The notes beneath the pieces were generated by a model. The model searched no databases. It saw only the letters and a list, made by a program, of their open reading frames with translations, and was not told the DNA's origin. Of a stretch of DNA of 64,000 bases, positions 31,844 to 48,187 are shown in pieces. Numbering within the stretch: the first letter of the stretch is position 1; each line of letters starts with the position of its first letter. Location of the stretch: positions 3,200-67,199 of the forward strand of contig CALESR010000270.1 in NCBI GenBank assembly GCA_937907485.1. Reading direction: 5' to 3'. Made by a program: the position numbers and the translations under genes. The DNA comes from an uncultured Rhodobacteraceae bacterium. Its GTDB lineage: Bacteria; Pseudomonadota; Alphaproteobacteria; Rhodobacterales; Rhodobacteraceae.

Positions 31844-31851
31844 GCGCGCCG

Positions 31852-33024: not shown

Positions 33025-34196
33025 CCGGTTCCGCATCGCTCTCGCTCTTGATCTGTGGTGACATCTGCCCGACGGCGGACACCCGTGCGCTGTTCGACGA
33101 TGGGGTGCCCGGTGCCTTGCTGGGCACGTTGGTCGACAGGATCCGGGCCGCCGATCTTTCGCTCGCCAATCTCGAATGCGTCTTGTCCGAAACGGCGCCC
33201 CCAGCGGACAAGATCGGACCAGTGTTGACCGGCAAGGCCGCCGACGCCCGACTGCTGGCCGACGCTGGATTCGACCTGCTGGGTGTGGCGAACAACCACA
33301 TCAAGGACTGCGGCGAGGCCGGAGTGCTGGATACGCTTGCCGCCTGTGCGGCCGCCGGGATTCGCACGACGGGCAGCGGACCGAATGCCGCCGCTGCAGC
33401 CGAACCCGCGTGCCTTGAGGTCAAGGGCTGGACCATCGGCGTGATGGCCGTGGCCGAGCACGAATTCAACGCCGCTTCGGCAACTGGCGCCGGCGCGCAT
33501 GTTTTTGATCCCTTGACCGATCTCGAACGCCTGCGCGCCCTGAAAGCACGGTGTGATTGGGTTGTCGTGCTCTATCACGGGGGTATCGAGTATCACCCCT
33601 TTCCCAGCCCATTGTTGCAGCGTACCTGCCGTTCGCTGGTGCGCAACGGCGCCGACCTGGTCCTGTGTCAGCACAGCCATGTGATCGGCACGCTCGAGGC
33701 CTATGAGGGCGGGCATATCCTGTATGGGCAGGGCAATTCGGTCTTTGGCCACCGTCCCGGCAAATCGGGGTGGAATCAGGGGCTGGCGGTCTCGGTATTT
33801 CTTGATCGAGCGGACGGAATACAGGCCCGATTGGACATGTTGCCGATTGGCTGTGACGCCTCGGGGAGGGTCGATCTCCTCCCCGAAGACAGTGCAAAGG
33901 CCTGTCTGATGGCACTGGACGAACGGTCGCGCCGCGCCGAAGATCCCGCGTGGATCGAGACCGCCTGGTCAGGGTTCTGCGCCAATCTGGGCAAGAACCA
34001 GTTGCCGCATGTGCTGGGGCTGGGCCTCTGGCCGACACGCCTCAACCGGTTGCTCAAGGGCGGGTTGGTGCGGACCCTGTTCAGCAAGAAGCAACGCATG
34101 ACCGCCCTGAACGTCGTGCGCTGCGATGCGCATCGCGAGGTGGTGTTGACCGCGTTCGGGCAGACCTTGGATATCGCGCGGTTTGATCGCCCATGA
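33021..34196 (+). CDS. CapA/PGA_cap-family metallophosphoesterase-like protein
   Basis: CGDICP, ANLEC, ANNHIKDCG, YHGGIE, CQHSHV, YGQGN. Confidence 0.85.
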   Translation: MTGSASLSLLICGDICPTADTRALFDDGVPGALLGTLVDRIRAADLSLANLECVLSETAPPADKIGPVLTGKAADARLLADAGFDLLGVANNHIKDCGEAGVLDTLAACAAAGIRTTGSGPNAAAAAEPACLEVKGWTIGVMAVAEHEFNAASATGAGAHVFDPLTDLERLRALKARCDWVVVLYHGGIEYHPFPSPLLQRTCRSLVRNGADLVLCQHSHVIGTLEAYEGGHILYGQGNSVFGHRPGKSGWNQGLAVSVFLDRADGIQARLDMLPIGCDASGRVDLLPEDSAKACLMALDERSRRAEDPAWIETAWSGFCANLGKNQLPHVLGLGLWPTRLNRLLKGGLVRTLFSKKQRMTALNVVRCDAHREVVLTAFGQTLDIARFDRP

Positions 34197-35248
34197 TGCC
34201 GCATTTCGCCCTTCTGTTCGGGGTTTCGACGGTGGCGCTGATCGCGCAATACCGCCGGTTCTCGGGCGGAATCCGTTATGTGCTGGGCTTTGTGATCGTT
34301 CTCATGCTGACCCTTTTCGCCGGGCTTCGCGGGAATTTTGTCGGCGCCGATACGATCGGCTATATCGAGCGTTTCCTGTATCTGGTCAGCGTAGACGCCG
34401 ACTGGGATGGGACCAGTTCTGCCGAGCCGGGCTACAAGACGCTGGTTCTGATCGCGCGGCTGATATCGGACGATCCGACCGTGTTCTTGATCGTGACCTC
34501 GGGTGTGGTGTCTGGGCTCTTGGTGGCCGGGGCCTATCGAATGGCGCTGATCCCGCCTCTGGCGCTGTTCGTGATGATCGCCTTTGGCTTTTATGCCTTT
34601 CACATGAACGGTTTGCGGCAGGGTCTGGCCTTGGCCGTGTATGTCCACGCGCTGCCATCGCTGCTGCAGGGCCGACCTGCGCGCTATGGGCTGTGGGTGC
34701 TGGCCGCGTCGCTGTTCCATACGACCGCGATCTTCACATTGCCGCTTTATCCGCTGTTTCGCATCGGGTTTTCGATCTGGACCTTCGGCTTTCTCATGGT
34801 CATGGCAGGCCTGACGACCGTGGGTCTGGACTTTGTTTTCCAGTTCGCCGGCCTCGCCAACGAACGCTATGCGCTCTACGGTCAGAGCACGGCCACCGGC
34901 GGCGCGATGCTGACACTGTTTCACGTCATGCTCGCTGCGATGTTCATGCTGGGGCGCCCAATGGTGCGTCGCGAATGGCGAGCGGATTACGATAAATTGT
35001 TGATGATGCTGCTGTTCGGGGCGATGATCTTCGTGATTGTCCAGTTGACGGGCAGCTACGTCGAAATGACCCGGATGGCGCTCTATTTCACCATTTCGAT
35101 GGCGTTTCTTTGGCCGATCCTCTTGCGGTCGGTTCGCTCGCCGAATGTCCGGTTTTCGGTCATTGTCGCCGTCATGGGGATGGGCTGCGTCTATTTTTTT
35201 GTTTTTCTCAATCAGATAGGCGGGTACATCCCGTTCACGTTCCGATGA
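34193..35248 (+). CDS. wzy: EpsG-family O-antigen/capsule polymerase (Wzy)
   Basis: About 10 TMs, AGLRGNFVGADTIGY, EPGY, NGLRQGLA, LFHTTA, RMALYF. Confidence 0.83.
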   Translation: MMPHFALLFGVSTVALIAQYRRFSGGIRYVLGFVIVLMLTLFAGLRGNFVGADTIGYIERFLYLVSVDADWDGTSSAEPGYKTLVLIARLISDDPTVFLIVTSGVVSGLLVAGAYRMALIPPLALFVMIAFGFYAFHMNGLRQGLALAVYVHALPSLLQGRPARYGLWVLAASLFHTTAIFTLPLYPLFRIGFSIWTFGFLMVMAGLTTVGLDFVFQFAGLANERYALYGQSTATGGAMLTLFHVMLAAMFMLGRPMVRREWRADYDKLLMMLLFGAMIFVIVQLTGSYVEMTRMALYFTISMAFLWPILLRSVRSPNVRFSVIVAVMGMGCVYFFVFLNQIGGYIPFTFR

Positions 35249-36198
35249 ACCGGCCAACCGGTTTGGCGCAAGTTGCAATGAAGGCCACGATGAGTTCCGA
35301 CAAACCGCGCCTGTACCTGAGCGTCGACTTCGAGGATTTTTCGCATGACAATCTGCGAAGCCTCGGTGCGCCGTATGAGCCAACGATGCGGCGCGAGGCC
35401 TTGCTGCGGTCGTTGGACGTCATTCAGGACTACGCCACGCGGCATTTTCAAGACCCGCGAATGACCTTTTTCTGCACCGGGATCGTGGCGCGCAAGTGCC
35501 CGGATGTCGTGCGGCGGATCGCCGACTTGGGGCATGAGGTCGCGTGCCACTATCATTTTCACGACGATGTTCGCGCCGACAATCTGCACGTGTTGTCGCA
35601 GCGCCTCAGCGATGCCAAAGCTGCCCTCGAGGATGCCGGTGGCCAGGTGGTTCGCGGCTTTCGCGCGCCCCGGTTTTCGATCGATGCCGATGACCGCCAC
35701 CGCTATGGCCTGATCGAAGAGCATTTCGACTACGATTCGTCGATGCGGGTGGATTCGGTCGAGGAATGTATCGCGGTGCGCAAGGCTTTGGGCCTGACGC
35801 GGTTGCGGGTCTTTCCCGTCGGGTGCCACCGGGTGCGGCGCTATCTCAAACCGATCAAGACCGGCGGCACCTATCTCAAGTTGTTCCCGGTCTCGATCGG
35901 GATTGATCTGTTGCGACGCTCGACGGCGAACGGGTTGCTCCCGATGCTCTATCTGCACCCCTATGAATTCGTGGCCGACCGCTCGTTCATGATCGGTTGG
36001 AAGGAGTTGGCGTTTTTGCCCCCCATGAAACGGGCGCTGGTCTATGCGCGTCAGATACAATGGCATGTTGTTGGAAATGCAGGAATGAACACCAAGCTCG
36101 ACCGGGTCTTTGCCGAGTTCCAGCAGGGCGGACGGATGTGTGATCTGCTGGCGACAGATTATGCGCTTTCGTCGGACAAGACTCAGGGTCGGCCATGA
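35245..36198 (+). CDS. Polysaccharide deacetylase family protein
   Basis: LSVDFED, TFFCTG, GHEVACH, GFRAPRFS, YDSS, YLHPYE. Start at 35245, 35278 or later. Confidence 0.85.
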   Translation: MNRPTGLAQVAMKATMSSDKPRLYLSVDFEDFSHDNLRSLGAPYEPTMRREALLRSLDVIQDYATRHFQDPRMTFFCTGIVARKCPDVVRRIADLGHEVACHYHFHDDVRADNLHVLSQRLSDAKAALEDAGGQVVRGFRAPRFSIDADDRHRYGLIEEHFDYDSSMRVDSVEECIAVRKALGLTRLRVFPVGCHRVRRYLKPIKTGGTYLKLFPVSIGIDLLRRSTANGLLPMLYLHPYEFVADRSFMIGWKELAFLPPMKRALVYARQIQWHVVGNAGMNTKLDRVFAEFQQGGRMCDLLATDYALSSDKTQGRP

Positions 36199-37067
36199 AA
36201 ATCACCATTGGTTTGCCATTCTTCAACGCCGAAGACGATCTGCCCGATGCGATCCGCTCGATCTTCGCCCAAACCCATCAGGATTGGGAACTGATCCTGA
36301 TCGACGACGGTTCGACCGACCGCTCGTTGGACATCGCGCGCTCGGTTCAGGATCCGCGCGTGCGGGTTGTTTCGGATGGGCGAAATCTGCGACTGGCGGC
36401 GCGGCTGAATCAGATCGTCGATCTGGCGCAGACCGAGATCATCGTGCGCATGGATGCCGATGACCTGATTGCGCCCGAGCGGATCGAACGCGAACTCGCG
36501 GTTTTGCAGGCCGAGCCGGGCATCGATCTTGTATCGACCGGGCTGGTGTCGATTGACCGCAAGGGCGAACCCTTTGGCGCACGTTCGCATTTTGCCGACA
36601 CTGTCACGCGCGAGAACCTGCTGCGCAAACAGGGCGCCGGGATTGTCCATGCCGCCGTGGTCGGGCGCAGGGCGTGGTTTTTGCGCAACCGTTATGACCC
36701 GTCGGTGCCAATTGCGCAGGATTACGACCTTTGGCTGCGCTCCAGTGCGAAGGGGGATCTGGCGGTGCGAATCCTGCAAGAACCACTGTATTATGTGCGC
36801 GAGGTCGGCAGTGTCACTCCGTCCAAGATGTTCCGCTCGTACCGGATGGATCGCCGGGCCCTCTGGCGCAACCGGCGTAACCTGTGGGAGGCGCGCTTTA
36901 TCCTGAAATCGCTGCTGAAAACCGCGGCCCTATGGCTGATCGTCACCGCCGGACGGCTGGACTGGCTGGTGCGCCGCCGCTCGACGCCGCTGACGGATCA
37001 GGCGCTGATCGCCAAAGTCCATTCCGATATCGCCACGATCCGAAGCACCCATGTCCCCGGCCTTTGA
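36195..37067 (+). CDS. GT2 glycosyltransferase
   Basis: ITIGLPFFN, IDDGSTD, RMDADD, AQDYDLWLR. Confidence 0.92.
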   Translation: MKITIGLPFFNAEDDLPDAIRSIFAQTHQDWELILIDDGSTDRSLDIARSVQDPRVRVVSDGRNLRLAARLNQIVDLAQTEIIVRMDADDLIAPERIERELAVLQAEPGIDLVSTGLVSIDRKGEPFGARSHFADTVTRENLLRKQGAGIVHAAVVGRRAWFLRNRYDPSVPIAQDYDLWLRSSAKGDLAVRILQEPLYYVREVGSVTPSKMFRSYRMDRRALWRNRRNLWEARFILKSLLKTAALWLIVTAGRLDWLVRRRSTPLTDQALIAKVHSDIATIRSTHVPGL

Positions 37068-38256
37068 TCCCCTTGCGCCCGCTTCGCGACGCCCGCGCGT
37101 TGCATGGGTGATGCATAGCGTCTTCAACGCAAAGTTCTTTCTGGTTCCGCATCTGCGCATGCTGGGCGAGGAGCACGAGGTCTTGCTCTATCTGCGCAAC
37201 GACGCACCCGAAATTCTGGCCAATCTGGATATTCCCGCACGGGTCGTCGAAATCCCGATTGTCAGGCATGTCGATCCCTTGGCCGATCTCAAGGCGTTGT
37301 GGGTGCTGTATCGGGCGCTGCGGCGTGATCGGCCGGACCTTGTGCACAGCACGACGGCCAAAGGCGGGCTGATCGGCATGCTGGCGGCGTTCTTCGCCCG
37401 GGTGCCGCGGCGGGTTCATACCTTTCAGGGCGAAGCCTGGCCGCATTTCACCGGGGTCAAGCGTTGGCTGTTCAAGGCGCTTGACCGATTGGTCGCATGG
37501 CTTGCGACCGAGGTGACCGTGGTTTCGGCCTCGGAACGCGATTTCCTGCGCGACCAAGGTGTGTTGCCACCGAATCGGGGTCTGGTTCTGGGCTCAGGCT
37601 CGATCTGCGGGGTGGATCTGGAGCGTTTTTATCCAGACGCCGAGAGGCGCGCTGCGAAACGCGCGGAGCTGGGCTATGTCGAGGGCGATTTCGTCATCCT
37701 GTATTTGGGGCGGCTGCAGCGCGACAAGGGGTTGCACATCCTCGATGCGGCCCTGCAAAAGCTCACGGCACGCAGCGACCAGCCGATTCACGTGCTGGCC
37801 GTCGGCCCGGACGAAGACGGGCTTGGCGAGGGGCTGGTGCGCACCTTTGGCGCCGGGGTGCAGGTGCTGCCCTATACCGACACCCCTGAGGATTTCATCG
37901 CTGCGGCGGACATTCTGGTGCTGCCGAGTTTCCGCGAAGGCTTTGGCATGGTGCTGATCGAGGCCGCGGCAATGGGTGTGCCGTCGGTGGCATCGCGCAT
38001 CTATGGCATCACCTGCGCGGTCGCCGAGAATCAAACCGGCCTGCTGTTCGATGTTGGCGACCCGCAGGCGATGGCCGACGCGATGGAGCGCTTGTTGACC
38101 GATGGCGGTTTGCGGCGCAGACTCGGGGAAAACGGCATCAACCGGACGCGCGCCGAGTTCGACCAGAAAGTTGTGATCGAGCATTTCCGCCAGTTCTATC
38201 GGGCGCAACTGGCCGAATGGGTGCCCAGGGCAAGCGACAAGGGAGAGCGTCGGTGA
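37051..38256 (+). CDS. GT4 glycosyltransferase (CapM-like)
   Basis: VHSTTAKGG, HTFQG, GSICGVD, GRLQRDKG, PSFREGFGMVLIEAAA. Confidence 0.92.
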   Translation: MSPAFDPLAPASRRPRVAWVMHSVFNAKFFLVPHLRMLGEEHEVLLYLRNDAPEILANLDIPARVVEIPIVRHVDPLADLKALWVLYRALRRDRPDLVHSTTAKGGLIGMLAAFFARVPRRVHTFQGEAWPHFTGVKRWLFKALDRLVAWLATEVTVVSASERDFLRDQGVLPPNRGLVLGSGSICGVDLERFYPDAERRAAKRAELGYVEGDFVILYLGRLQRDKGLHILDAALQKLTARSDQPIHVLAVGPDEDGLGEGLVRTFGAGVQVLPYTDTPEDFIAAADILVLPSFREGFGMVLIEAAAMGVPSVASRIYGITCAVAENQTGLLFDVGDPQAMADAMERLLTDGGLRRRLGENGINRTRAEFDQKVVIEHFRQFYRAQLAEWVPRASDKGERR

Positions 38257-39083
38257 TCGACTACAGTTTGCACCCCGCGCTCGAACGCGCCAGCATCGAC
38301 GATTACATCGCGCTGTTTGATCTGGCCTTTCCCGGCAATGACAAACTGGGGCGCGCGTATCTCGAATGGCTCTATCGGCAGAACCCGGACGGTCCGGCTG
38401 TCGGGATGGACGCCTACCTGGGTGATGAACTGGCCGCCCATTATGTCACTATTCCGCGCACTTATCGGCAGGGCGGGGCGACGTATCGCGCACTGTTGTC
38501 GGTCAACACGGCGACCCATCCCCGCCACCAGCAGCGCGGGCTGTTCAAGCGTCTGGCCAATGCGACCTATGAAGCGGGGCAGGCGCAGGGGTTTCAGTTC
38601 GTGCTCGGCGCCGCCAATGCGAATTCGACCCATGGGTTTATCCGCAGTCTGGGCTTTGAGCATCTGGGCCAAATCCGCATGGTCGCCTGGTGCGGTCCGG
38701 ATGAGGTCGTCGAGCGGCTGCGCCTCGATACTCGGCCCGATTGGCTGGCCTGGCGGCTGGCGCGACCACAGGCCAGCTATCGTCTGTCACGGTTGGCCGG
38801 GGGCAGGGTGCGCATCCAGACCCGCCAGCGCGGCCTTGGCGTGACATTGGGTTTTGTGCCCGCCGAATCCCTCGCGCCCGTTCTCACCGATCATAGGGTG
38901 CACAGCCTGCCCTGGTTGCCGAACCTCACGCCGATCTTTCCGGTGCCGGGTGCAAGTCTGCGGTTGCCCGACCGCCTGCACCCGTCGCCCTGGAACGTGA
39001 TCTTCCGCCCGCTCGGTGCCGCGGGTCACGAGATCGACACCCGCCTGTTGCAGTATGACGGGCTGGCGATGGATACGTTCTGA
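38253..39083 (+). CDS. GNAT-family acyltransferase
   Basis: WLYRQNPDG, SVNTATHPRHQQRGLF, GAANANS. GTG overlaps the upstream stop. Confidence 0.8.
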   Translation: MIDYSLHPALERASIDDYIALFDLAFPGNDKLGRAYLEWLYRQNPDGPAVGMDAYLGDELAAHYVTIPRTYRQGGATYRALLSVNTATHPRHQQRGLFKRLANATYEAGQAQGFQFVLGAANANSTHGFIRSLGFEHLGQIRMVAWCGPDEVVERLRLDTRPDWLAWRLARPQASYRLSRLAGGRVRIQTRQRGLGVTLGFVPAESLAPVLTDHRVHSLPWLPNLTPIFPVPGASLRLPDRLHPSPWNVIFRPLGAAGHEIDTRLLQYDGLAMDTF

Positions 39084-39091
39084 ACCACGCC

Positions 39092-39466
39092 TCAGGCGCC
39101 CAGTTCCGTGATAAGGTGGCGCGCCAGTGCCAACGAGTCGACCTGCGTCACCAACAGGATTGCGTCCTCGGTCGAGGGCAGCGGACCCGTGCCGGACCAG
39201 TCTTGCAGGCACTGGCGCGCAGCCTCTGCCGCCGACATGTCGATCGCACCGCTGACATCCCAATCCGGACGATCCGGCAACGCCGCCATTGCCGCCAGCC
39301 AGGTTGCACCGTCGCTGATCGAGGCCAGCGCCAGCGTGCCCCCGCCGATGCCGGACCCACCGGCCAGATCGAAGGTCTGGGCGTCGGCTGTGCTTTGCCC
39401 CAGAACCAGCGCCAGTTGATTGGCGCTGTCGCAAAGAGCGGCGGGGCAGATGATTGTCAGTCTCAT
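39092..39466 (-). CDS. Small phage-type hypothetical protein co-transcribed with the spike/fibre genes
   Basis: ATGA-coupled to the fibre gene. MRLTIICPAAL..ANQLALVLG pattern recalled from proteins that follow phage fibres in Rhodobacterales. Confidence 0.55.
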   Translation of the reverse strand: MRLTIICPAALCDSANQLALVLGQSTADAQTFDLAGGSGIGGGTLALASISDGATWLAAMAALPDRPDWDVSGAIDMSAAEAARQCLQDWSGTGPLPSTEDAILLVTQVDSLALARHLITELGA

Positions 39467-40656
39467 GTCGGCGCTCCGGTTTTCTGGGCCATGTAGTGAC
39501 TCAGCAGGGTGTTGTCGGGCTCGGACAGGGCCGTGTCGAACAGCACCAGCCCGTGAATCCGCCCGGCAAAGCGCAATCCGCCGTCCGTGCGTTGCCCCAG
39601 ATGCAACTCGCGGGCGTTTCTCCAATGTGCCGCCACGGTGCCGCTGCTCGCGCTTGAAGCAAGGTCCGCGCCGCCTGACACCTGCAACGCCGCCAGATGG
39701 GGCGCGGCGACCGAAGCCCGCAGCAGCGCGGCGGCGGCAACCGGCGCGGCGGTGGCACTGTTTGTCACAGAGACCGGCGTCCCGTTGTTTACCGTTAGGG
39801 CGATCTGCGGCAACCCGGCCGTCGCCGGAGCATCCAGCGCCATCGTTGGTTCGGCGCCGCCAAGGTCCAGAACTCGCGCTGCCACGCCATCGTCGGGCTT
39901 GTAAAGACCCGCGGCGCCGGTCAGGGCCGCGCCCGATGACAGGTCCAAACGTCGCACGATCAGCCGGTCATCTATCCCGTCAAAGGACAACGAAGGCAGG
40001 CCGCCCGCGAGGCTGTAAACCGGACGCGCGGCCAGCACGGGTTGCGTGGCATGGGCGCCGGGCAACTCGCGCACCGAGAGCCCGGCCTTCAGCGAGGTGA
40101 CCCCGCCACTCGACGGGGTATAGCAACGCAACGACAGGTCTGCCGGGAAGACCGCCAGAAACCGGTGTGTGCCGTTGCCGCTGAACACCGGGCTATAGCC
40201 GCTGCCATGCCATAACCGGATACCGCCCGAGACATAGTCGCTGATGGTGATCGTCACCTCGACGCTCGCACTGGTCTGATAGGGCGACCCATTGGCGGCC
40301 GTCAGCAACAGCCCGTTGCTGCCTGCGGGCACTGCATCGAAGGTTACGATGCCCCCGGCGACCGACACGCCACTGGCAAAGCTGCTCCAGGTTCCGGAGC
40401 CAAAACCCGAGGGCATCAACTCGGCACCCCGAGCCAGCGCATGCGACTTGTCGAGCGCCAGTGCTACGAGATCACCGGGCGTGGTGGCTGGCGTCGTGCC
40501 TGCAAGATCGGTGAACAGCGTCGCTGCATCCGAGGGGTCAATCCAGACCCCGCGGATGCCGGTGGCAAACACCATCGCCGGATCGAGCACTGGCACCGCG
40601 CCGACCCGCCGTCGAAACGGTGCCGAGCAGACCGAAAGGTCGACCACTGTCTTCAT
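39463..40656 (-). CDS. Putative GTA head fibre / phage receptor-binding protein (LamG-like beta-sandwich with inserted module)
   Basis: VWIDPSDAATLFTDLAGTTP...LDKS and ATQ...RPVY...LSFDGIDD motifs of phage-fibre LamG-like domains; Gly/Ser/Thr-rich. ATGA-coupled to the spike base gene. Confidence 0.62.
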   Translation of the reverse strand: MKTVVDLSVCSAPFRRRVGAVPVLDPAMVFATGIRGVWIDPSDAATLFTDLAGTTPATTPGDLVALALDKSHALARGAELMPSGFGSGTWSSFASGVSVAGGIVTFDAVPAGSNGLLLTAANGSPYQTSASVEVTITISDYVSGGIRLWHGSGYSPVFSGNGTHRFLAVFPADLSLRCYTPSSGGVTSLKAGLSVRELPGAHATQPVLAARPVYSLAGGLPSLSFDGIDDRLIVRRLDLSSGAALTGAAGLYKPDDGVAARVLDLGGAEPTMALDAPATAGLPQIALTVNNGTPVSVTNSATAAPVAAAALLRASVAAPHLAALQVSGGADLASSASSGTVAAHWRNARELHLGQRTDGGLRFAGRIHGLVLFDTALSEPDNTLLSHYMAQKTGAPT

Positions 40657-40916
40657 GCCAGCACCAGCGCGTGGATGCCGCTGGCCGTGGTGCCGGTCGC
40701 GTTCACCCGGCGCACGCCGAGCGGCAGGATCGAATGGTCGAGAACCGACAGGCTGCGGGTATTCCCGGCCACCGTAACGATATCCAGCGTGCCGCCGGTT
40801 TCGACATAAAGCGCGATGGCAACATGCGCCAGATCGACCGAGTCGCTGGGCGTGACGGGCAGCGCGTCGGTCGCGGGGCCGGACAGGGCAGCGGAACGAT
40901 GCGAAAAGGGGTTCAT
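40653..40916 (-). CDS. ghsA: GTA head-spike base protein, Rcc01079 family
   Basis: 87 aa: MNPFSHRSAALSGPA...VTPSDSVDL...ALYVETGG.L...ILPLGVRRVNATGTTA.GI.ALV fits the family pattern MxPF...L.xPA...(V/I)TPSD...ATGTTA..I.AL. Confidence 0.8.
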   Translation of the reverse strand: MNPFSHRSAALSGPATDALPVTPSDSVDLAHVAIALYVETGGTLDIVTVAGNTRSLSVLDHSILPLGVRRVNATGTTASGIHALVLA

Positions 40917-41015
40917 GGCAAGTCCTTGTGCTGGGGTGCGCGGCAGCAAGTCGCTGGCCGCATCCGGCACTGTCCGCCAACGGCCTTGCTCTTGCGTGAT
41001 GTGCGCGGACCCGCC

Positions 41016-41031
41016 GTTAAGACTTGGTGAA
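41016..41031 (-). promoter_or_regulatory. CtrA-like box upstream of the spike operon
   Basis: Minus strand reads TTCA-N7-TTAAC, one mismatch to TTAA-N7-TTAAC, about 100 bp upstream of ATG 40916. Confidence 0.42.
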
Positions 41032-41152
41032 CCAGCTTGGCTGCGAAGCTGGCAGGCCGCGCAACGCACCGTCAATTTCCACAGAAGCAGCCCGGCGCAT
41101 CAGGTCGCGGAACAACAAGGCGCGCCTCAATTGCCCCTCGGACGCCACGACA

Positions 41153-41758
41153 TCACCGCAGCCGACGGAAAACCGTCGCCAGGATAAGCCTGAAATCCCA
41201 GCACAAAGTTCGGTTGCGGGCATAGAGGAGGTCGAGATGTGCTTTTCGTGGAATGCAACGCGTCTGATAGACCCGCTCGTTTTCTTCCGGTGTCGTGCAA
41301 TGGCGCAGCAGGAAATCCTCATGCGCATGGAAATAGATCGAAGCCACGCCGGTCACGCCTGGGCGCGATTGCAGGACCTTGCCATAGATCTCGGGGAATC
41401 GCTCGACATAGACCGGCAGCGGCGGGCGAGGGCCGACGAAACTCATGTCCCCCTTGAGTATGTTCCATAGCTGCGGGATTTCGTCGATTCGGGTGCGGCG
41501 CAGAAACGCCCCGGTCCGGGTGATCCGATGCGCCTTGTGGCCACCCGAGGCGGTCGTATCGTTGACCGCCGGGCGCATCGTGCGGAATTTCACCAAGCGA
41601 AAAGTCTTGCGAGGCGCCTTGGCGCGGTCAGAGATGTAAAAAACCGGACGGCCATCAAGCAGGAGGATCGCCACAGCGGTCACGATCATGATCGGCGAGA
41701 AGACGGCGATGGCGATCAGGGCGAAAAGGATGTCGAAAAATCGTTTTGCAGGCGTCAT
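41153..41758 (-). CDS. Priming phosphoglycosyl transferase (bacterial sugar transferase, PglC/WcaJ C-terminal type)
   Basis: KRFFDI, KFRTM, FLRRTRIDEIPQLWNILKGDMSFVGPRP, RPGVTG. Confidence 0.93.
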   Translation of the reverse strand: MTPAKRFFDILFALIAIAVFSPIMIVTAVAILLLDGRPVFYISDRAKAPRKTFRLVKFRTMRPAVNDTTASGGHKAHRITRTGAFLRRTRIDEIPQLWNILKGDMSFVGPRPPLPVYVERFPEIYGKVLQSRPGVTGVASIYFHAHEDFLLRHCTTPEENERVYQTRCIPRKAHLDLLYARNRTLCWDFRLILATVFRRLR

Positions 41759-42010: not shown

Positions 42011-42028
42011 ATATGGCGGATGGGGTGG
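42011..42028. repeat. att core copy (duplicated tRNA-Ser 3' end)
   Basis: Identical to 48711-48728. Confidence 0.93.
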
Positions 42029-42153
42029 CCGCCATGAAAGCGATTTATCCGTTAGCAATCAATAGCATAATGGCGAAACTCGCCTAGTTTCCTTGGCCAT
42101 ACCACACAAGCCGGTATGCAGCCTTGCGCGATTCGGTGCATCTGGTTACTCTA

Positions 42154-42166
42154 TCTTTGTGGGGTA
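42154..42166. repeat. Probable integrase arm-type site
   Basis: TCTTTGTGGGGTA also occurs at 48658-48670, near the other att; related TGTGGGGTT at 48650-48658. Confidence 0.55.
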
Positions 42167-42184
42167 GTAAGAAGGGCACCAGAC

Positions 42185-43474
42185 ATGCCGAGGATTGCCG
42201 AAGAATTGACCGCGCTGGACGTCAAGCGGCTGGCGCATCCCGGCGGAGCCAACAATGCCCTGTTTGCGGTGGGGGGCGTGCCGGGGCTTCACATGCAGAT
42301 TACCCCAATGGGCGGGCGCACCTGGATATTGCGCGTCAAGGTGGGGATAAAGCGGCGCGATATCGGGCTGGGCGGCTTTCCCGCTGTGACCCTATCGCAG
42401 GCCCGCGACAAGGCCCGCGACGCCCGCGCCAAGATCGAGCAAGGCATTGACCCGGTCGAGGTGCGCAAAGCCGCCAAAGCCGCGCTGATTGCCTCACAGC
42501 GCCGGGGCCTGACCTTTGCGCAGGCGGTCGAGCGCTACCTTGCCGCCAAGATGGAGGCGCACAAGAACGCCAAGCACCGCCAGCAATGGGCCAACACGCT
42601 GGCCACCTATGCCACCCCGGAACTGGGCGCGCTTCTGGTGCAGGATATCCAAACGCAGGACATTCTGCGCGCGTTGCAGCCGATCTGGGTCGACAAGACC
42701 GAAACCGCCAGCCGGGTTCGCGGGCGCATCGAGGCGGTCCTGTCATGGGCAACCGTGGCCGGGCACCGGACGGGCGACAACCCAGCGCGCTGGTCTGGCA
42801 ACCTGAAAGAACTGTTGCCCGTGCCGTCCAAGGTCGCCAAGGAAGGCCACCATCCCGCCGTCACGATTGACGAAGCGCCGCGCTGGTTTGCCGCCTTGCA
42901 GGGCCGCGACGGGTTCGGGGCGCGGGCGCTGGAGTTTGCCGCGTTGACCGCGACTCGGTCCAAGGAAGTGCGCGGCGCGCCTTGGGATGAGATCGATCTG
43001 GACAAGGGGCTGTGGATAGTCCCCGCTGTGCGGATGAAAGGGGGCAAGGAACACCGCGTCCCCCTGTCCCCGCGCGCGCTGTCGTTGCTGCGCGCGCTGC
43101 CCCGGATCGAGGGCAACCCGCTGGTGTTTCCGGCGGCGCGCGGCGGGCAACTGTCCGACATGACCCTGTCGGCCACCATGAAGCGGATGCACGAGGCCGA
43201 GGTGGCCGAGGGCGGCGCGGGTTACCTTGACCGCACGTCCAAGCGCCCCGCCGTGCCGCATGGCCTGCGCAGCACCTTCCGCGACTGGGTGGCCGAGCGG
43301 ACGCAATACCCCGGCGACATGGCCGAGGTCGCGCTGGCGCACAAAATCAGCAACGCCGTTGAGGCCAGCTATCGGCGCGGCGACATGATCGAAAAGCGCC
43401 GCCGGATGATGGCGGATTGGGCGGATTATCTGGGCGGCACGGCGAAGGCCGGGCAGGTTGTGAGGATCGGGTGA
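42185..43474 (+). CDS. P4-type tyrosine integrase with arm-binding domain
   Basis: N-terminal arm-binding domain (GLHMQITPMGGRTW, LGGFPAVTLSQAR); catalytic R (TRSKEVRG), K (MKGGKEH), HGLR, LAH and Y (ASYRRG). Confidence 0.96.
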   Translation: MPRIAEELTALDVKRLAHPGGANNALFAVGGVPGLHMQITPMGGRTWILRVKVGIKRRDIGLGGFPAVTLSQARDKARDARAKIEQGIDPVEVRKAAKAALIASQRRGLTFAQAVERYLAAKMEAHKNAKHRQQWANTLATYATPELGALLVQDIQTQDILRALQPIWVDKTETASRVRGRIEAVLSWATVAGHRTGDNPARWSGNLKELLPVPSKVAKEGHHPAVTIDEAPRWFAALQGRDGFGARALEFAALTATRSKEVRGAPWDEIDLDKGLWIVPAVRMKGGKEHRVPLSPRALSLLRALPRIEGNPLVFPAARGGQLSDMTLSATMKRMHEAEVAEGGAGYLDRTSKRPAVPHGLRSTFRDWVAERTQYPGDMAEVALAHKISNAVEASYRRGDMIEKRRRMMADWADYLGGTAKAGQVVRIG

Positions 43475-44376
43475 TGTGGTGTCCAGAAGGCTACGTTTCT
43501 TGGAATGATGTGGTGAATGAAGTCTTCGAGTTGGCCGAGAAGATTTTGTGCGAAGTCAGTGCCTCGAAATCGCTTGTAGCTTATGAAGACGGACCGACAA
43601 CTCCCCGTCATATTCACTCAGCAAGTTACTATCTTATTCGTGGCGGGTTTGCTGAAGACTATGCAGAGGCGGATTTCATTGTAGGGCTAACGGCAACATA
43701 CCTCTTGAGTCATTTTCTTGAGCACTTTCCGCCACTACTAGCCAATATCGCTGGTCCAATCATTCAAGCAAGTCCAGAAGTCTTTCTTCACAAGGATCGC
43801 CTCGACCTCTGCACATATTCTTGGCCAATAAGAAGTGACCCACAATTTCAGGCGCTGTTCACTTATGCAAAGGAAGGGCGAATCTCAACGAAGACACTTC
43901 TTGATCGATTCGCGTTCATCGATCCGATTTCAGGGCAAATTTGTCGCAAGAATGGTGACATAAACTTTCTCGCTAACTTCACCTCAATGGATGAAATGGA
44001 TGCTTACAGACTTGCTGAGTTTGTCCGCAATGTGTCCGAATCCGTCGTCTGCTGGCCTGCATTTCCCGATTCAAATGATATACGAGACTTTCTAGACGGT
44101 CTTGGCTGGGACGAAAAAATCTCGGCGAAGCTAAATGACGTTCTTGGAGGCGAAACCGATTCCCCTACGACAGGCGAAAAACTGATGAGAGGAAGGCCTG
44201 ACAAGAAGGCCGCTGCTGCTAAGGTCTACTTTGATATCTTTCCAGATGGGCATGAAGCCTGCGGCAAGACATGGAAGCAAGCCCTTCAAGAAGTTGAAAG
44301 TCGCCTAGGAAGGTCAGTATCGGAAGTCACCCTCAAAAGGGGCGTTGGTCAATTACGGGGACGAGCACCTCAATAA
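43474..44376 (+). CDS. Hypothetical protein, AT-rich, with C-terminal GRP-led HTH-like segment
   Basis: Long ORF with visibly lower GC than its flanks; overlaps the integrase stop; C-terminal RGRPDKK...TWKQALQEV...SVSEVTLKR. Confidence 0.7.
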   Translation: MWCPEGYVSWNDVVNEVFELAEKILCEVSASKSLVAYEDGPTTPRHIHSASYYLIRGGFAEDYAEADFIVGLTATYLLSHFLEHFPPLLANIAGPIIQASPEVFLHKDRLDLCTYSWPIRSDPQFQALFTYAKEGRISTKTLLDRFAFIDPISGQICRKNGDINFLANFTSMDEMDAYRLAEFVRNVSESVVCWPAFPDSNDIRDFLDGLGWDEKISAKLNDVLGGETDSPTTGEKLMRGRPDKKAAAAKVYFDIFPDGHEACGKTWKQALQEVESRLGRSVSEVTLKRGVGQLRGRAPQ

Positions 44377-44476
44377 TCGCAAAAACCATTTTGAACTTTG
44401 CGAGATTTCTGAGTAGCTGCCGCTACGTGTCGGATTGGGCCACGATGCGATCCATGGCAACCGCATGGAGTAGCAA

Positions 44477-44665
44477 ATGCCTGCAACCTATCTCACTGAC
44501 CGCCAGCTTGGCGCCCGCTGGGGCGTTCACCATCTGACCATCCGTCGCTGGCAACGCACCGATCCCGAATTTCCCCGCCCGGTGAAACTGACACCCGGCT
44601 GCACCCGCTGGAAACTGTCGGAAATCGAGGCTTGGGAAGCGTCCAAAGCCCAAACCGCCGCATAA
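44477..44665 (+). CDS. alpA: AlpA-family excisionase/regulator
   Basis: 62 aa: YLTDRQLGARWGVH..TIRRW...FPRPVKL..GCTRWKLSEIEAW. Confidence 0.88.
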   Translation: MPATYLTDRQLGARWGVHHLTIRRWQRTDPEFPRPVKLTPGCTRWKLSEIEAWEASKAQTAA

Positions 44666-44771
44666 ACGAAACCGCCACCCGGCGGGGCGGCGGCGCATTC
44701 GTTTTGGGGCATTTGGACTGCCTGAACAATAGCACCACCCTGCCTTGGCATCAATGCTCAAGGTATTGAAC

Positions 44772-45062
44772 ATGACCAAACAAGACCACTGGTTTTCCAA
44801 CCCCACTCAGGTGTTCTGGTGTTGCAAAGCCCTGATCGATGGCCGCTGGATTTCCCACAAGACGGAAATTCGCGAGGTGAACGGATGGCGCCTTGGCGCA
44901 ATCATCCACAATCTGAAATCCAGATACCGCTGGCCGATTGAGGTCGAGTATCGCGGCCCCGAGTGCATCGCCTATTACCGGCTGCGCCCCGGCACCGAGA
45001 TTGCCCGCCTCAAATTCCCGCCCAGCGCCGCCGGGCTTGCGGGCGAGGTATCGGGATGCTGA
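44772..45062 (+). CDS. Small winged-helix-like hypothetical protein
   Basis: ALIDGRWIS..E.....WRLGAIIHNLK..Y.WPI pattern (HTH-like); ATG at 44772. Confidence 0.55.
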   Translation: MTKQDHWFSNPTQVFWCCKALIDGRWISHKTEIREVNGWRLGAIIHNLKSRYRWPIEVEYRGPECIAYYRLRPGTEIARLKFPPSAAGLAGEVSGC

Positions 45063-45163
45063 CCCTGTTGCTCAAGCTGGGGTTTCGCCCCGTTGTCGCG
45101 TCATTGTTGGCCCTTGCCTTCTATACGGTGCTACTCTTGCTCATCTGGTGGGTGATGCCATGA
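45056..45163 (+). CDS. Small single-TM protein
   Basis: 35 aa hydrophobic ORF overlapping both neighbours (ATGA-coupled to Prim-Pol). Confidence 0.45.
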   Translation: MLTLLLKLGFRPVVASLLALAFYTVLLLLIWWVMP

Positions 45164-46272
45164 GCACTCGCGCCCGGCGCCATGATGACGTGCTTCCCGA
45201 TGATTTCCGCAATCAGCTTGCCCGCCTTGCGCGGGCGGGCTTCCCCCTCTTGCCGCTTGGCGGTGGCACCGATGGCAAGGCCCCGCTGGTGAGGGCATGG
45301 GCTGGCCCTGTGTTGCCTTTGGCGCACGTTCTGGCCCCGCTGCACCGATCTGGGGCGCAGGTCTATGGCATCCGGCTGGACGGGCTGGCGGTGATCGATT
45401 GCGACGACGACGACCCCGCGCTTGTTGATGCGATGGAGGCACGTTTCGGCCCGTCCCCGGTGCATGTGAAAACCCCACGCGGGCGCCACCTGTATTATCG
45501 GGCTAGTCGCGCCGAGACGGCGCCAAACCTGCGCGCCGAGGGATTGCCGGTCGATATCAAGACCGGGGCGCGGTCCTATGTCGTGGGGCCGCTGTCTCTC
45601 AGGCCCGATGGAGGCGCCTATGTGGCCGCCAAGGGCGTGCTGGGCATCGATGCCTTGCCAACCCTGCGCGCGCCTCTCAGGCCCGCCCCAGAGGCGCCGG
45701 GCAGGGCACTGTTAATCGGTGAACGCCATGTGAGGCTGGTCAAGGAGGCGGTCGCAATGGTCGAGTTTGTGGACAGCGCCGAGGAACTGGCCGCCAACCT
45801 TGCGGCGGTTCGGGATGACCTTTGCCAAGATGCCGAGAACTTCCCGGATAGTGAGGTGGTCGCCATATCGGGCTGGGCTTGGACGGTGAGACTTGAAAAC
45901 CGGGTTTACCGGGGTCGCCAGAGCGCCTTTTCGGTTCAACGGCTGGCCTTGGACGCGCTGCGCCGATGGGAGAACGGCACCGACGCGCTAGCGATGTATG
46001 TGATGCTGGTCGACCTGCATGGGCATATCCCCGGCAAGCGGTTCGCGCTGGACTTCAAGGCCATGCGGGCGTCCGACCTGACCCGGCTTTCCGTTCCCCG
46101 CCTGCGCGCGGGGCGGCGCACCTTGCAAGCTGTGGGGCTGCTGAGGCTGATGGGCAACCATCGCGCGGGCGCGGTTCACCAGACCTTTGCCTTGGGCAGG
46201 CCTTGCGCCCCTGACGCCGACCCGGACCGCATCGTTCATATTGGCAAACCCGCCCACAAAGGGCAAAGTTGA
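45160..46272 (+). CDS. Bifunctional DNA primase/polymerase (Prim-Pol) replication protein
   Basis: GFPLLPL...KAPLVRAW, YGIRLDGLAVIDCD, VKTPRGRHLYYR, VDIKTGARSYVVGPLS; no Walker A helicase motif seen in the C-terminal part. Confidence 0.85.
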   Translation: MSTRARRHDDVLPDDFRNQLARLARAGFPLLPLGGGTDGKAPLVRAWAGPVLPLAHVLAPLHRSGAQVYGIRLDGLAVIDCDDDDPALVDAMEARFGPSPVHVKTPRGRHLYYRASRAETAPNLRAEGLPVDIKTGARSYVVGPLSLRPDGGAYVAAKGVLGIDALPTLRAPLRPAPEAPGRALLIGERHVRLVKEAVAMVEFVDSAEELAANLAAVRDDLCQDAENFPDSEVVAISGWAWTVRLENRVYRGRQSAFSVQRLALDALRRWENGTDALAMYVMLVDLHGHIPGKRFALDFKAMRASDLTRLSVPRLRAGRRTLQAVGLLRLMGNHRAGAVHQTFALGRPCAPDADPDRIVHIGKPAHKGQS

Positions 46273-46307
46273 CAGGTCACCCGCGAACCGATGCCAAGCC
46301 GCGCCGC

Positions 46308-46336
46308 TGGTGGCCGGGGTGGATTTGAACCCAAGG
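46308..46336 (-). pseudogene. Degenerate tRNA 3'-end-like fragment (possible relic att site)
   Basis: Minus strand reads CCTTGGGTTCAAATCCACCCCGGCCACCA: T-loop GTTCAAATC plus acceptor-like arm ending in CCA; no 5' half visible. Confidence 0.4.
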
Positions 46337-46345
46337 ACGCAGTCC

Positions 46346-47149
46346 ATGAGAGCATTTGTTGTCGCGCTAGCCCTCGCCCTCGCCCCGGTGCCCGGCGTGG
46401 CGCAGGATTTTGAGGCCGGCTTGGCCGCCTTTGTGAATAGCGACTATGCGACAGCCCTGAATGAATGGAGGCCTTTGGCCGAGCAGGGCAACGCTCTGGC
46501 GCAATTCTCCCTTGGCTTCATGTATCACCAAGGCCAAGGCGTGCTGCAGGACCCTGCAGAAGCCGTGCGCTGGACTCGCGCCGCTGCAGAGCAGGGGCAT
46601 GCAGGAGCGCAAGCCAATCTCGGCCTCATGTATCGCCTAGGCCAAGGCGTGCCGCAGGACTTTACAGAGGCCGCGCGCTGGTATCGCGCTGCCGCAGAGC
46701 AAGGCCACGCTGTGGCACAATTAGACCTTGGAGACATCTATCACTATGGCAACGGCGTGCCGCAGGACCATGTCGAGGCCGTGCGCTGGTATCGGCTGGC
46801 CGCCGAGCAGGGCAACGCCGGGGCGCAAGCCAACCTCGGCGAGATGTATAGCATGGGCGTCGGCGTACTGCGGGACTATGCCGAGGCCGCACGCTGGAAT
46901 CGTGCCGCCGCCGAGCAGGGAAATTCCTTCGCGCAAATGAATCTGGGCGCCATGTATGCCGAAGGCTACGGTATGCCACAGGACTATGTTACGGCACATA
47001 TGTGGCTAAACATCGTCGCTAGCACAGGATATCGACCTGCCGTCGCGGCCCGCGAAACTGTTGCCCGCAGAATGACCCTCACTGACATATCCGAGGCGCA
47101 GCGCCGGGCGCGGGTTTGTATGGCGTCCAATTATCAAGATTGCGACTGA
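46346..47149 (+). CDS. Exported Sel1-like repeat protein
   Basis: Signal peptide MRAFVVALALALAPVPGVA|QD; about five 36-aa repeats A(A)EQG.A.AQ..LG.MY..G.GV.QD..EA.RW. Confidence 0.93.
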   Translation: MRAFVVALALALAPVPGVAQDFEAGLAAFVNSDYATALNEWRPLAEQGNALAQFSLGFMYHQGQGVLQDPAEAVRWTRAAAEQGHAGAQANLGLMYRLGQGVPQDFTEAARWYRAAAEQGHAVAQLDLGDIYHYGNGVPQDHVEAVRWYRLAAEQGNAGAQANLGEMYSMGVGVLRDYAEAARWNRAAAEQGNSFAQMNLGAMYAEGYGMPQDYVTAHMWLNIVASTGYRPAVAARETVARRMTLTDISEAQRRARVCMASNYQDCD

Positions 47150-47207
47150 ATGCCGAATGAAGGGCGCAGGGGCGTGGGGAAAGCAGGGGGGAGGGCTAAG
47201 ATTACAT

Positions 47208-48130: not shown

Positions 48131-48187
48131 AAGCTAGTCTGCGCTGGCGTTGATGCTGGTGGCACTCAAGTGGCCTCGAATTGAGGA

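What the first reader, a model, noticed from the sequence alone, without database searches (positions are those of the whole stretch)
39092..41031. GTA head-spike module embedded inside the capsule locus: a possible receptor-ligand 'kin-recognition' cassette
Seen: Rcc01079-family spike base, fibre and accessory gene lie between the last capsule gene (GNAT) and the priming sugar transferase, with no other phage/GTA structural genes nearby. Established: in Rhodobacter capsulatus, GhsA/GhsB spikes bind the recipient's capsule and are encoded beside capsule genes, away from the main GTA cluster. Inference: capsule type and matching GTA adhesin are inherited and swapped as one unit, biasing gene transfer toward the same capsule type.
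Basis: partly seen in the sequence, partly recalled or inferred. Interest (0 to 1): 0.76.

Follow-up and report, generated by a model that had tools for sequence, protein, structure and literature searches.

The report
GTA head-spike genes inside capsule locus
Three small genes at the edge of this bacterium's capsule-sugar gene cluster encode the head spike of its gene transfer agent, with a sugar-binding fibre of a type not yet described; comparison with 80 related genomes shows this pairing of spike and sugar genes is common, which makes the idea that these particles aim at cells wearing the same capsule testable.

Summary
On the minus strand, 40653-40916 encodes an Rcc01079-family spike base (NCBIfam NF048002, 106 bits against a cut-off of 28; PDB 6TB9 E 1e-11). 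ATGA-coupled to it are a 397-aa fibre (39463-40656) and a 124-aa accessory (39092-39466). They sit between a GNAT gene and a Bac_transf priming transferase, at the end of a 25-kb Wzx/Wzy/Wzc polysaccharide cluster. A canonical RcGTA head-tail cluster lies on another contig.

The fibre is not a GhsB homologue. It has a conserved N-terminal peptide, an inserted domain and a LamG/ConA-like lectin domain. The accessory belongs to an unannotated family.

Across 80 Rhodobacterales loci the base is conserved and the fibre falls into about 44 types. A polysaccharide gene lies within 500 bp in 35-59% of loci, against 3-4% by chance. In Roseovarius, breakpoints place base and fibre inside the variable part of the sugar locus, and fibre type tracks the downstream sugar genes.

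The arrangement is already known from Rhodobacter capsulatus. New here are the fibre type, the accessory and the generality of the linkage. Matched binding and kin-biased transfer remain untested, and counter-examples exist.

The parts
40653..40916 (-). Head-spike base protein (87 aa), Rcc01079/GhsA family
   Evidence: NF048002 at 106 bits against a cut-off of 28. phrog_12296 at E 8e-19. PDB 6tb9_E3 at E 1.3e-11. 70-79% identical to bases of Roseovarius, Roseibacterium and Maritimibacter.
39463..40656 (-). Head-spike fibre candidate (397 aa). Residues 1-~20 are a conserved attachment peptide, ~24-75 a conserved N-domain, ~95-197 an inserted beta-sandwich, and ~200-397 a LamG/ConA-like lectin domain with a C-terminal helix.
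   Evidence: ATGA overlap with the base stop. The N-terminal ~70 aa are shared with 62 of 66 fibres that follow spike bases. AF2 pLDDT is 76.6 overall and ~88 for residues 200-397. Foldseek hits: Pan3 tailspike E 1e-6, laminin/neurexin LG, CBM40. Weak Pfam Laminin_G_3 match.
39092..39466 (-). Accessory protein (124 aa), unannotated alpha/beta family
   Evidence: ATGA overlap with the fibre stop. Homologues sit in the same position in 12 other loci. 559 representative clusters in 1.84 billion proteins. AF2 pLDDT 82. No PDB fold match. One uncharacterised Caudovirales protein at E 6e-6, TM 0.88.
40917..41152 (-). Intergenic region upstream of the base; holds a CtrA-type half-site TTAAC at 41016-41020, 104 nt before the start codon
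   Evidence: Sequence read. The half-site occurs in 24 of 65 upstream regions against 10 expected from shuffles. No sigma-70 promoter or terminator match on this strand. This is weak evidence.
41153..41758 (-). Small polyprenyl-phosphate sugar-phosphate transferase (priming enzyme), same strand and directly upstream of the spike genes
   Evidence: Pfam Bac_transf at 176 bits. Matches the C-terminal catalytic part of TIGR03025.
16658..39083 (.). Wzx/Wzy-type polysaccharide (capsule/EPS) cluster that converges on the spike module
   Evidence: Pfam assignments. It holds 13 of the 48 polysaccharide-type ORFs found in the whole genome and is the only large cluster. The Wza exporters lie on other contigs.
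42011..48728 (.). Context only: integrative island (P4-type integrase, Prim-Pol) at tRNA-Ser(TGA). It is not part of the spike module. Without it the locus would abut the tRNA.
   Evidence: Integrase domains. tRNA at 48714-48803. 18-bp direct repeats at 42011-42028 and 48711-48728. Metagenome contigs of related strains end at 42020-42028.

Best explanation
The three genes most likely encode the head spike of this bacterium's RcGTA-type gene transfer agent.

Shown: the 87-aa protein is a true Rcc01079-family base. The genome has a complete-looking GTA head-tail cluster elsewhere. The three genes are translationally coupled.

Inferred by analogy with the RcGTA structure: pentamers of the base sit on the capsid vertices, and a single fibre plugs into each pentamer through its conserved N-terminal peptide (MK-[IVL]-V-x-D-[LIF]-S-[VLI]-T-S).

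Inferred from the model fold: the fibre's C-terminal LamG/ConA-like lectin domain binds a surface glycan. The most likely ligand is the polysaccharide made by the surrounding Wzx/Wzy locus, giving the first reversible attachment of particles to recipient cells.

The 124-aa accessory co-varies with fibre type. It is most likely a fibre-specific assembly chaperone or a distal partner. This is inferred and weak.

Because base, fibre and accessory lie inside the exchangeable part of the sugar locus, fibre type and glycan type tend to be inherited together. If binding is matched, that would bias GTA delivery towards cells of the same capsule type. The linkage is shown comparatively in relatives. 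Matched specificity and biased transfer are not shown.
For: Identity of the base:
- NF048002 scores 106 bits and PDB 6tb9_E3 matches at E 1.3e-11.

GTA in the genome:
- Contig C355 carries an rcc01685-like gene, HK97 protease and capsid, connector, TP901-1 tail, TIGR02217/02218 proteins, peptidase and megatron at 1717 bits.
- The DUF2793 tail fibre is on C66.

Link of this module to GTAs:
- In Antarctobacter heliothermus the same trio (88 + 394 + 130 aa; fibre 33% identical over its full length) directly follows the GTA cluster and is followed by convergent sugar genes.
- In Roseovarius sp. MBR-78 the megatron and DUF2793 genes lie 5 kb upstream of the base.

Architecture:
- An ATGA-coupled fibre follows the base in 66 of 81 loci.
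- The N-terminus is conserved and the C-terminus falls into about 44 types.
- The fibre has a lectin fold.

Linkage to sugar genes:
- A strict polysaccharide gene lies within 500 bp in 35% of loci and 48% of fibre types, against 3.4% of random positions in this genome.
- Breakpoints and co-variation are documented.

Precedent:
- RcGTA head spikes bind the capsule, and ghsAB abut and are co-regulated with the capsule genes (PMC5026251; PMC7296036; PMC10218006; locus).
Against: - The fibre has no detectable similarity to GhsB (E 0.7) and fails NF048003. It also lacks the IALGLGLGL plug peptide. Its role as the spike fibre therefore rests on position and on the conserved N-terminus.
- Only 5 of 31 genomes of the genus have a spike base, although 31 of 31 have the megatron. 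The spike is dispensable and may be recently acquired.
- Rcc01079 homologues also occur in true phages, and this genome carries at least one prophage.
- There is no expression, proteomic or binding evidence.
- The Wza exporter is not in the locus, so 'capsule' as opposed to EPS or O-antigen is not settled.
- Roughly half of the fibre types are not next to sugar genes.
Confidence: 0.65

Rival explanations
1. The linkage has no matched specificity. The module is the GTA head spike, but it sits in the sugar locus only because both are fast-evolving, phage-exposed surface functions that collect in the same recombination hot spot next to a tRNA, or because they share QS/CtrA regulation. On this view the fibre binds some other or broader glycan, and no kin bias results.
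For: - The locus abuts tRNA-Ser and an integrative island.
- In L010/L018 the fibre C-terminus was replaced alone between conserved flanks that carry no sugar genes.
- About half of the fibre types have no polysaccharide neighbour.
- In the Marinosulfonomonas-type group the only 'sugar' neighbour is a single NAD-dependent epimerase followed by housekeeping genes.
- In R. capsulatus the neighbouring genes are co-regulated.
Against: - The enrichment is about ten-fold over chance and survives collapsing to fibre types.
- Fibres more than 60% identical share downstream genes four times more than upstream genes.
- Roseovarius loci with 92-94% identical upstream blocks carry different fibres together with different GT/Wzy/Wzx sets.
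- In R. capsulatus the adjoining capsule is the demonstrated ligand.
Confidence: 0.2
2. The module is a phage-derived remnant or moron. On this view it is a left-over or captured phage head-fibre cassette that does not decorate the GTA. It would serve a resident prophage or have no function.
For: - Rcc01079 homologues are interspersed with phage sequences, and some lie in prophages.
- PHROG 12296 matches the base.
- Distant fibre homologues lie between portal and scaffold genes of a phage contig.
- The accessory has a Caudovirales homologue.
- Distribution within the genus is patchy.
- A prophage is present on C192.
Against: - There are no phage genes around the module, and it lies outside the att-bounded island.
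- All three ORFs are intact and coupled, with host-like GC3.
- The base is 70-79% identical across many genera, always with an intact fibre gene behind it.
- In two genomes the module is contiguous with the GTA cluster.
- The C192 prophage has its own GhsB-like tail fibre and no base gene.
Confidence: 0.1
3. The three proteins are cell-envelope components of the polysaccharide pathway, for example a lectin-like anchor or chain-length factor for the capsule, and are not particle proteins.
For: The genes lie on the same strand as, and 236 bp downstream of, the priming transferase. LamG lectin domains occur in many non-viral proteins.
Against: The base is a curated equivalog of a capsid-bound protein whose structure is solved. 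The sequences show no obvious signal peptide or membrane segment (read by eye, not tested with a predictor). The module also occurs away from sugar genes and next to GTA clusters.
Confidence: 0.03

Closest known systems
Rhodobacter capsulatus RcGTA head spike, ghsA/ghsB (rcc01079/rcc01080), beside capsule genes rcc01081-01086
   Same: The base protein is homologous (NF048002; PDB 6TB9). The fibre gene follows the base directly and overlaps its stop. The locus lies away from the head-tail cluster and is contiguous with polysaccharide biosynthesis genes. The capsule is the known ligand in that system.
   Different: - The fibre is unrelated in sequence: LamG type, and it fails NF048003.
- The N-terminal attachment peptide is different.
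- A third, accessory gene is present.
- The module lies at the 3' convergent end of a Wzx/Wzy/Wzc cluster, behind the priming transferase, rather than upstream of the glycosyltransferases.
Spike modules of Roseovarius, Antarctobacter and Roseinatronobacter (loci L007/L062, L093-L095, L020, L046)
   Same: The base is 70-79% identical. The fibre shares the same N-terminal peptide and domain. Several loci carry the same accessory family. The module is embedded between a priming-sugar block and a variable GT/Wzy/Wzx block.
   Different: The fibre C-terminal domains are only 30-35% identical or are unrelated. The neighbouring sugar genes differ. In two genomes the GTA head-tail cluster is contiguous with the module, whereas here it is on another contig.
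Phage receptor-binding proteins with a conserved anchor and exchangeable lectin or depolymerase domains, including cyanopodophage Pan3 tailspike (PDB 9VYH) and capsule-type-limited gene flow in Klebsiella (PMC8259999)
   Same: A conserved N-terminal attachment part is joined to a mosaic C-terminal glycan-binding part. The concept that capsule type channels which particles, and so which DNA, reach a cell is shared (one search lists the paper; I did not read it).
   Different: Here the adhesin gene is chromosomal and sits inside the host's own capsule locus. It belongs to a non-replicating GTA and decorates the head rather than the tail.

Membership tests
RcGTA head-spike base (Rcc01079/GhsA; NCBIfam NF048002) | Scores above the curated cut-off of the equivalog model over its full length | tested here: met
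   106.4 bits against a cut-off of 28, profile positions 1-85 of 85. Whole-genome six-frame search gives 105.3 bits and a single copy.
RcGTA head-spike base (Rcc01079/GhsA; NCBIfam NF048002) | Sequence relationship to the solved capsid-bound base protein | tested here: met
   PDB 6tb9_E3 'Head spike base Rcc01079' at E 1.3e-11, residues 1-81 aligned to 1-81.
RcGTA head-spike base (Rcc01079/GhsA; NCBIfam NF048002) | The genome encodes an RcGTA-type head-tail cluster whose capsid the base can decorate | tested here: met
   Contig C355 carries the rcc01685 family, HK97 protease and capsid, connector, TP901-1 tail, TIGR02217/02218 proteins, peptidase and megatron at 1717 bits. The contig starts mid-cluster, so portal and terminase were not examined.
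RcGTA head-spike base (Rcc01079/GhsA; NCBIfam NF048002) | Pentamer bound to capsid vertices of released particles | not testable with these tools
   Needs particle proteomics or cryo-EM.
RcGTA head-spike fibre (Rcc01080/GhsB; NCBIfam NF048003) | Match to the GTA_spike_fiber model, or pairwise similarity to Rcc01080 | tested here: not met
   No NCBIfam hit at E <= 0.01. The only NF048003 hit in the genome is a prophage tail fibre on C192. BLASTP against R. capsulatus GhsB gives E 0.7.
RcGTA head-spike fibre (Rcc01080/GhsB; NCBIfam NF048003) | N-terminal alternating-leucine peptide (IALGLGLGL) that plugs the base pentamer | tested here: not met
   R. capsulatus GhsB starts MIALGLGLGL. P0002 starts MKTVVDLSVCS. 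A different peptide, MK[IVL]VxD[LIF]S[VLI]TS, is conserved in 61 of 66 fibres of this clade. It may do the same job, but that is inferred.
RcGTA head-spike fibre (Rcc01080/GhsB; NCBIfam NF048003) | Gene directly downstream of, and coupled to, the base gene | tested here: met
   ATGA overlap at 40653-40656. The same arrangement is seen in 66 of 81 loci and in R. capsulatus.
RcGTA head-spike fibre (Rcc01080/GhsB; NCBIfam NF048003) | Carbohydrate-binding domain that binds the capsule | tested here: inconclusive
   The model shows a LamG/ConA-like fold related to phage tailspike, CBM40 and laminin G domains. The ligand is not testable here.
Wzx/Wzy-dependent capsule/EPS locus | Priming transferase, flippase, polymerase, co-polymerase/tyrosine kinase and glycosyltransferases together | tested here: met
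   Bac_transf, Polysacc_synt (Wzx), EpsG (Wzy-like), Wzc (Wzz + GNVR + ATPase), GT2 x2 and GT4 x2.
Wzx/Wzy-dependent capsule/EPS locus | Outer-membrane exporter (Wza, Poly_export) in the locus | tested here: not met
   The three Poly_export genes lie on contigs C245, C11 and C199, and none is in the window. Capsule, EPS and O-antigen cannot be told apart from sequence.

The most novel reading that the evidence does not exclude
Across GTA-bearing Rhodobacterales, the head-spike base, its exchangeable lectin fibre (with a fibre-specific accessory) and the serotype-determining part of a capsule locus would form one recombining receptor-ligand cassette. Each capsule type would then carry its own matching GTA adhesin. 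GTA exchange would be partitioned into capsule-defined 'mating types', and acquiring a new cassette would switch a lineage's gene-exchange partners in a single step.
Probability: 0.3. Interest if true: 0.8.

Novelty: new variant of a known kind. Interest (0 to 1): 0.55.

Why it matters
GTAs are thought to move large amounts of DNA among marine and freshwater Alphaproteobacteria, yet what decides who receives that DNA is known for only one strain pair of R. capsulatus.

This locus and its 80 relatives add three points:
- The capsule-spike neighbourhood is not peculiar to R. capsulatus.
- The adhesin is a modular protein with a constant anchor and about 44 different glycan-binding ends.
- At least in Roseovarius, the adhesin sits in the same exchangeable segment as the serotype genes.

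That turns 'is GTA transfer kin-biased through capsule recognition?' into a concrete experiment. Candidate cultured strains are Roseovarius nubinhibens ISM and Antarctobacter heliothermus DSM 11445. It also gives annotators a second, unannotated head-fibre family and an accessory family to look for.

Tried and rejected
- GhsB homology of the fibre. BLASTP against R. capsulatus GhsB, NCBIfam/NF048003 and PDB sequence search were all negative. The fibre is filed as a positional analogue, not a family member.
- Function of the accessory. Pfam, PHROGs and NCBIfam gave nothing. PDB Foldseek gave nothing below E 0.4. BFVD gave one uncharacterised phage protein. The equivalent ORF in the phage contig L009 is not similar.
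- Base-like protein in the phage contig L009. The 100-aa ORF before the fibre homologue shows no profile similarity.
- Promoter and terminator scans around the module found nothing on the coding strand. The CtrA half-site enrichment is only 2.4-fold over shuffles and is kept as weak evidence.
- Cassette variation within this species. Contigs from four sludge and bioreactor metagenomes are colinear at about 97-98% identity over 28-42 kb, so no swap is visible. All runs listed are marked 'DNA?' (kind guessed); no separate search for RNA runs was made.
- R. capsulatus strain L092 as a 'swap'. It is a deletion that removes the capsule genes and the 3' end of ghsB, not an exchange.
- My first ORF chaining produced a spurious 444-aa 'fibre' in L011. 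It is antisense to a GT4 gene. The real fibre there is truncated after about 45 residues, and it was excluded from later statistics.
- The idea that the module is cargo of the neighbouring island is rejected, because the att repeats at 42011 and 48711 exclude it.
Full report
**What is in the window**

Three minus-strand ORFs are translationally coupled. The base is 40653-40916 (87 aa), the fibre 39463-40656 (397 aa) and the accessory 39092-39466 (124 aa). Each stop overlaps the next start as ATGA. Their GC3 (0.77-0.79) matches that of neighbouring genes.

The 87-aa protein hits NCBIfam NF048002 'spike base protein, RCAP_Rcc01079 family' at 106 bits, against a cut-off of 28. It also hits PHROG 12296 and the solved RcGTA chain 6tb9_E3 'Head spike base Rcc01079' at E 1.3e-11 over its full length. 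It is the only copy in the 3.6-Mb genome. The 397-aa and 124-aa proteins have no curated family, apart from a sub-threshold Laminin_G_3 match at the fibre's C-terminus.

**Surroundings**

The region from 16.6 to 39.1 kb is a Wzx/Wzy-type polysaccharide cluster. It holds a CapD-like dehydratase, Wzc, two UDP-sugar dehydrogenases, an epimerase, an AT3-SGNH acyltransferase, methyltransferases, Wzx, GT2, TupA, GT4, PGA_cap, EpsG, a deacetylase, GT2, GT4 and GNAT. It converges on the spike genes.

On the other side, on the same strand as the spike genes and 236 bp upstream of the base, lies a 201-aa Bac_transf priming transferase. This is the only large polysaccharide cluster in the genome. The Wza exporters are on other contigs, so 'capsule' is a reasonable but unproven label.

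Beyond the transferase a 6.7-kb island is inserted at tRNA-Ser(TGA). It carries a P4-type integrase and Prim-Pol and is bounded by 18-bp repeats at 42011 and 48711. The spike module lies outside this island.

**Is there a GTA?**

Yes. Contig C355 carries an rcc01685-family gene, HK97 protease and capsid, head-tail connector, TP901-1 tail protein, TIGR02217, hub TIGR02218, NlpC/P60 peptidase and megatron (NF048004, 1717 bits) in RcGTA order. The DUF2793 tail fibre is on C66.

All 31 genomes of the genus have the megatron, but only 5 of 31 have a spike base. Head spikes are therefore an optional, patchy GTA accessory, as Hynes et al. found for Rhodobacterales.

**The fibre**

It has no detectable similarity to R. 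capsulatus GhsB (E 0.7). It does not match NF048003 'GTA_spike_fiber'. That model's only hit in this genome is a 687-aa tail fibre of a prophage on C192, next to tape-measure, GpU and GPD genes.

Only 12 homologues appeared among 5.8 billion proteins. The best named one is in Antarctobacter heliothermus, 33% identical over the full length. There the same trio (88 + 394 + 130 aa) directly follows the GTA hub, peptidase, megatron, DUF2793 and endolysin genes, and is followed by convergent sugar genes.

Alignment of 21 fibres shows three parts:
- a conserved N-terminal ~75 residues;
- a ~120-residue insert present only in the long forms;
- a C-terminal domain that begins at a conserved 'HAxQ...ARP...FDG[IV]DD' motif.

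The AlphaFold model has pLDDT 76.6 overall and about 88 for residues 200-397. Residues 1-21 are disordered. The C-terminal half is a LamG/ConA-like jelly-roll, and the whole model looks like two tandem beta-sandwiches. The best structural matches are cyanopodophage Pan3 tailspike (E 1.3e-6), neurexin and laminin LG domains, and sialic-acid-binding CBM40 modules. These are lectin-type folds.

In RcGTA a single fibre subunit plugs the base pentamer with residues 2-10, IALGLGLGL (sequence confirmed). The fibres of this clade instead share MK-[IVL]-V-x-D-[LIF]-S-[VLI]-T-S in 61 of 66 cases. I take this as the equivalent plug for their own base subfamily, which is an inference.

More distant 580-aa homologues lie between the portal and scaffold genes of a P22-portal phage contig. 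That fits a head-fibre origin.

**The accessory**

Homologues occupy the same ATGA-coupled position in 12 other loci, always behind LamG-type fibres. Two unrelated small-protein families take that position behind other fibre types, and many loci have none.

The family has 559 representative clusters and no annotation. The model (pLDDT 82) is an alpha/beta fold without a PDB match. One uncharacterised Caudovirales protein matches it (E 6e-6, TM 0.88). A fibre-specific chaperone or distal partner is the best guess, held weakly.

**Generality of the neighbourhood**

A scan of one genome per species returned 185 spike-base loci, of which I analysed the best 80. The bases are 62-79% identical. In 66 of 81 loci an ORF of 242-578 aa overlaps the base stop. 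The N-termini form one family (62 of 66), while the C-terminal parts fall into 44 types at 50% identity.

I labelled polysaccharide genes with iterated profile searches seeded from Pfam-annotated genes. A strict polysaccharide gene (GT4, GT2, Bac_transf, Wzx, Wzc, CapD, Ugd) lies within 500 bp of the module in 28 of 80 loci. Counting sugar-nucleotide epimerases as well gives 47 of 80. The figures for random positions in this genome are 3.4% and 4.2%. Collapsed to fibre types, 21 of 44 have such a neighbour within 500 bp and 27 of 44 within 2.5 kb.

The background comes from one genome and the labelling is home-made, so the fold-enrichment is approximate. A ten-fold effect is nonetheless robust.

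**Cassette test**

Among locus pairs whose upstream 6 kb is syntenic, 20 of 23 pairs with unrelated fibres also have unrelated downstream flanks. Six of 7 pairs with fibres at least 50% identical share the downstream flank. Relatedness does not explain this pattern:
- Roseovarius loci L011, L023 and L044 have 92-94% identical upstream blocks, but different fibres and no downstream similarity.
- L016 and L028 have only 76% upstream identity, yet share the fibre (68%) and 5.2 kb downstream at 81%.

Pfam-annotated copies show the layout. A conserved, divergently transcribed DegT-CapD-Bac_transf block comes first, then base-fibre(-accessory), then a convergent variable block of GT4, Wzy, GTs, Epimerase_2 and Wzx.

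Breakpoints fall at the DegT start (the base is then only 77% identical) or about 30 nt into the fibre gene. At the protein level, fibres more than 60% identical share 0.30 of downstream gene length but only 0.08 upstream.

Counter-examples exist:
- L010 and L018 have conserved, sugar-free flanks. Their fibres are 60% identical for 195 residues and then unrelated, so the C-terminal domain was exchanged alone.
- The 355-aa fibre group is followed only by one epimerase and then housekeeping genes.
- R. capsulatus strain L092 lost the capsule genes and the ghsB 3' end by deletion.
- Within this species, four metagenomes carry the same locus at about 97-98% identity.

**Regulation**

A CtrA-type half-site TTAAC lies 104 nt upstream of the base. 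Such half-sites occur in 24 of 65 upstream regions, against 10 expected. R. capsulatus ghsAB is reported to have CtrA half-sites too. This is suggestive only.

**Comparison with what is known, and verdict**

The base is a member of the GhsA family. The fibre works like GhsB by position and predicted fold but is not a member of that family. The neighbourhood with capsule genes was already noted, and shown to be functionally meaningful, for R. capsulatus. Hynes et al. found no rcc01080 homologues elsewhere and only local synteny.

I found no paper describing LamG-type head fibres, the accessory, or a general spike-sugar-locus linkage, but the library is incomplete.

I rate this a new variant of a known kind, of moderate interest. 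Matched binding and kin-biased transfer remain to be shown.

Noticed in passing
window 42011-48728: A 6.7-kb integrative island at tRNA-Ser(TGA), bounded by perfect 18-bp direct repeats (ATATGGCGGATGGGGTGG). It carries a P4-type integrase and a Prim-Pol gene. Contigs of related sludge strains end exactly at the left repeat (42020-42028).
   Followed up: partly
window 46478-47017: Four to five tandem copies of a 108-nt unit (65-75% identical) inside the island. They probably encode a repeat protein.
   Followed up: no
genome contig C192:6425-8488 (L098): A 687-aa prophage tail fibre is the only match in the genome to the R. capsulatus-type 'GTA_spike_fiber' model NF048003. It lies next to tape-measure, GpU and GPD hub genes. 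The GhsB-like domain therefore exists here on a prophage tail, not on the GTA head spike.
   Followed up: partly
L093 (Roseovarius sp. MBR-78 contig 11) and L044/L095: One Roseovarius genome has two spike loci with 92% identical upstream DegT-CapD-Bac_transf blocks. The copy 5 kb from the GTA megatron has a fibre truncated after about 45 residues. The other copy, next to a transposase fragment, has an intact 408-431-aa fibre and a different sugar gene set.
   Followed up: partly
L092 against L090 (Rhodobacter capsulatus strains): One R. capsulatus strain has an identical ghsA, and its ghsB is identical up to about residue 266. The sequence then runs into unrelated DNA (ABC transporter, two-component system, RND pump), and the rcc01081-86 capsule genes are missing. 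A single deletion removed both the receptor genes and the fibre tip.
   Followed up: partly
L010 against L018 (Roseovarius tibetensis and Roseovarius sp. D22-M7): The fibres are 60% identical for the first 195 residues and unrelated in the last ~280, while both flanks are about 82% identical and carry no sugar genes. This is a clean C-terminal domain exchange.
   Followed up: partly
L009 (JGI metagenome phage contig): A 586-aa homologue of the fibre (39% identity in the N-terminal and middle domains, 26% in the LamG domain) is encoded between a P22-type portal and a scaffold gene. This suggests a head-fibre role in a podovirus-like phage.
   Followed up: no
PDB 8cjz_h: A second solved 'Spike Base Protein' (92 aa) matches the base weakly (E 9e-4). 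I did not identify the particle it comes from.
   Followed up: no
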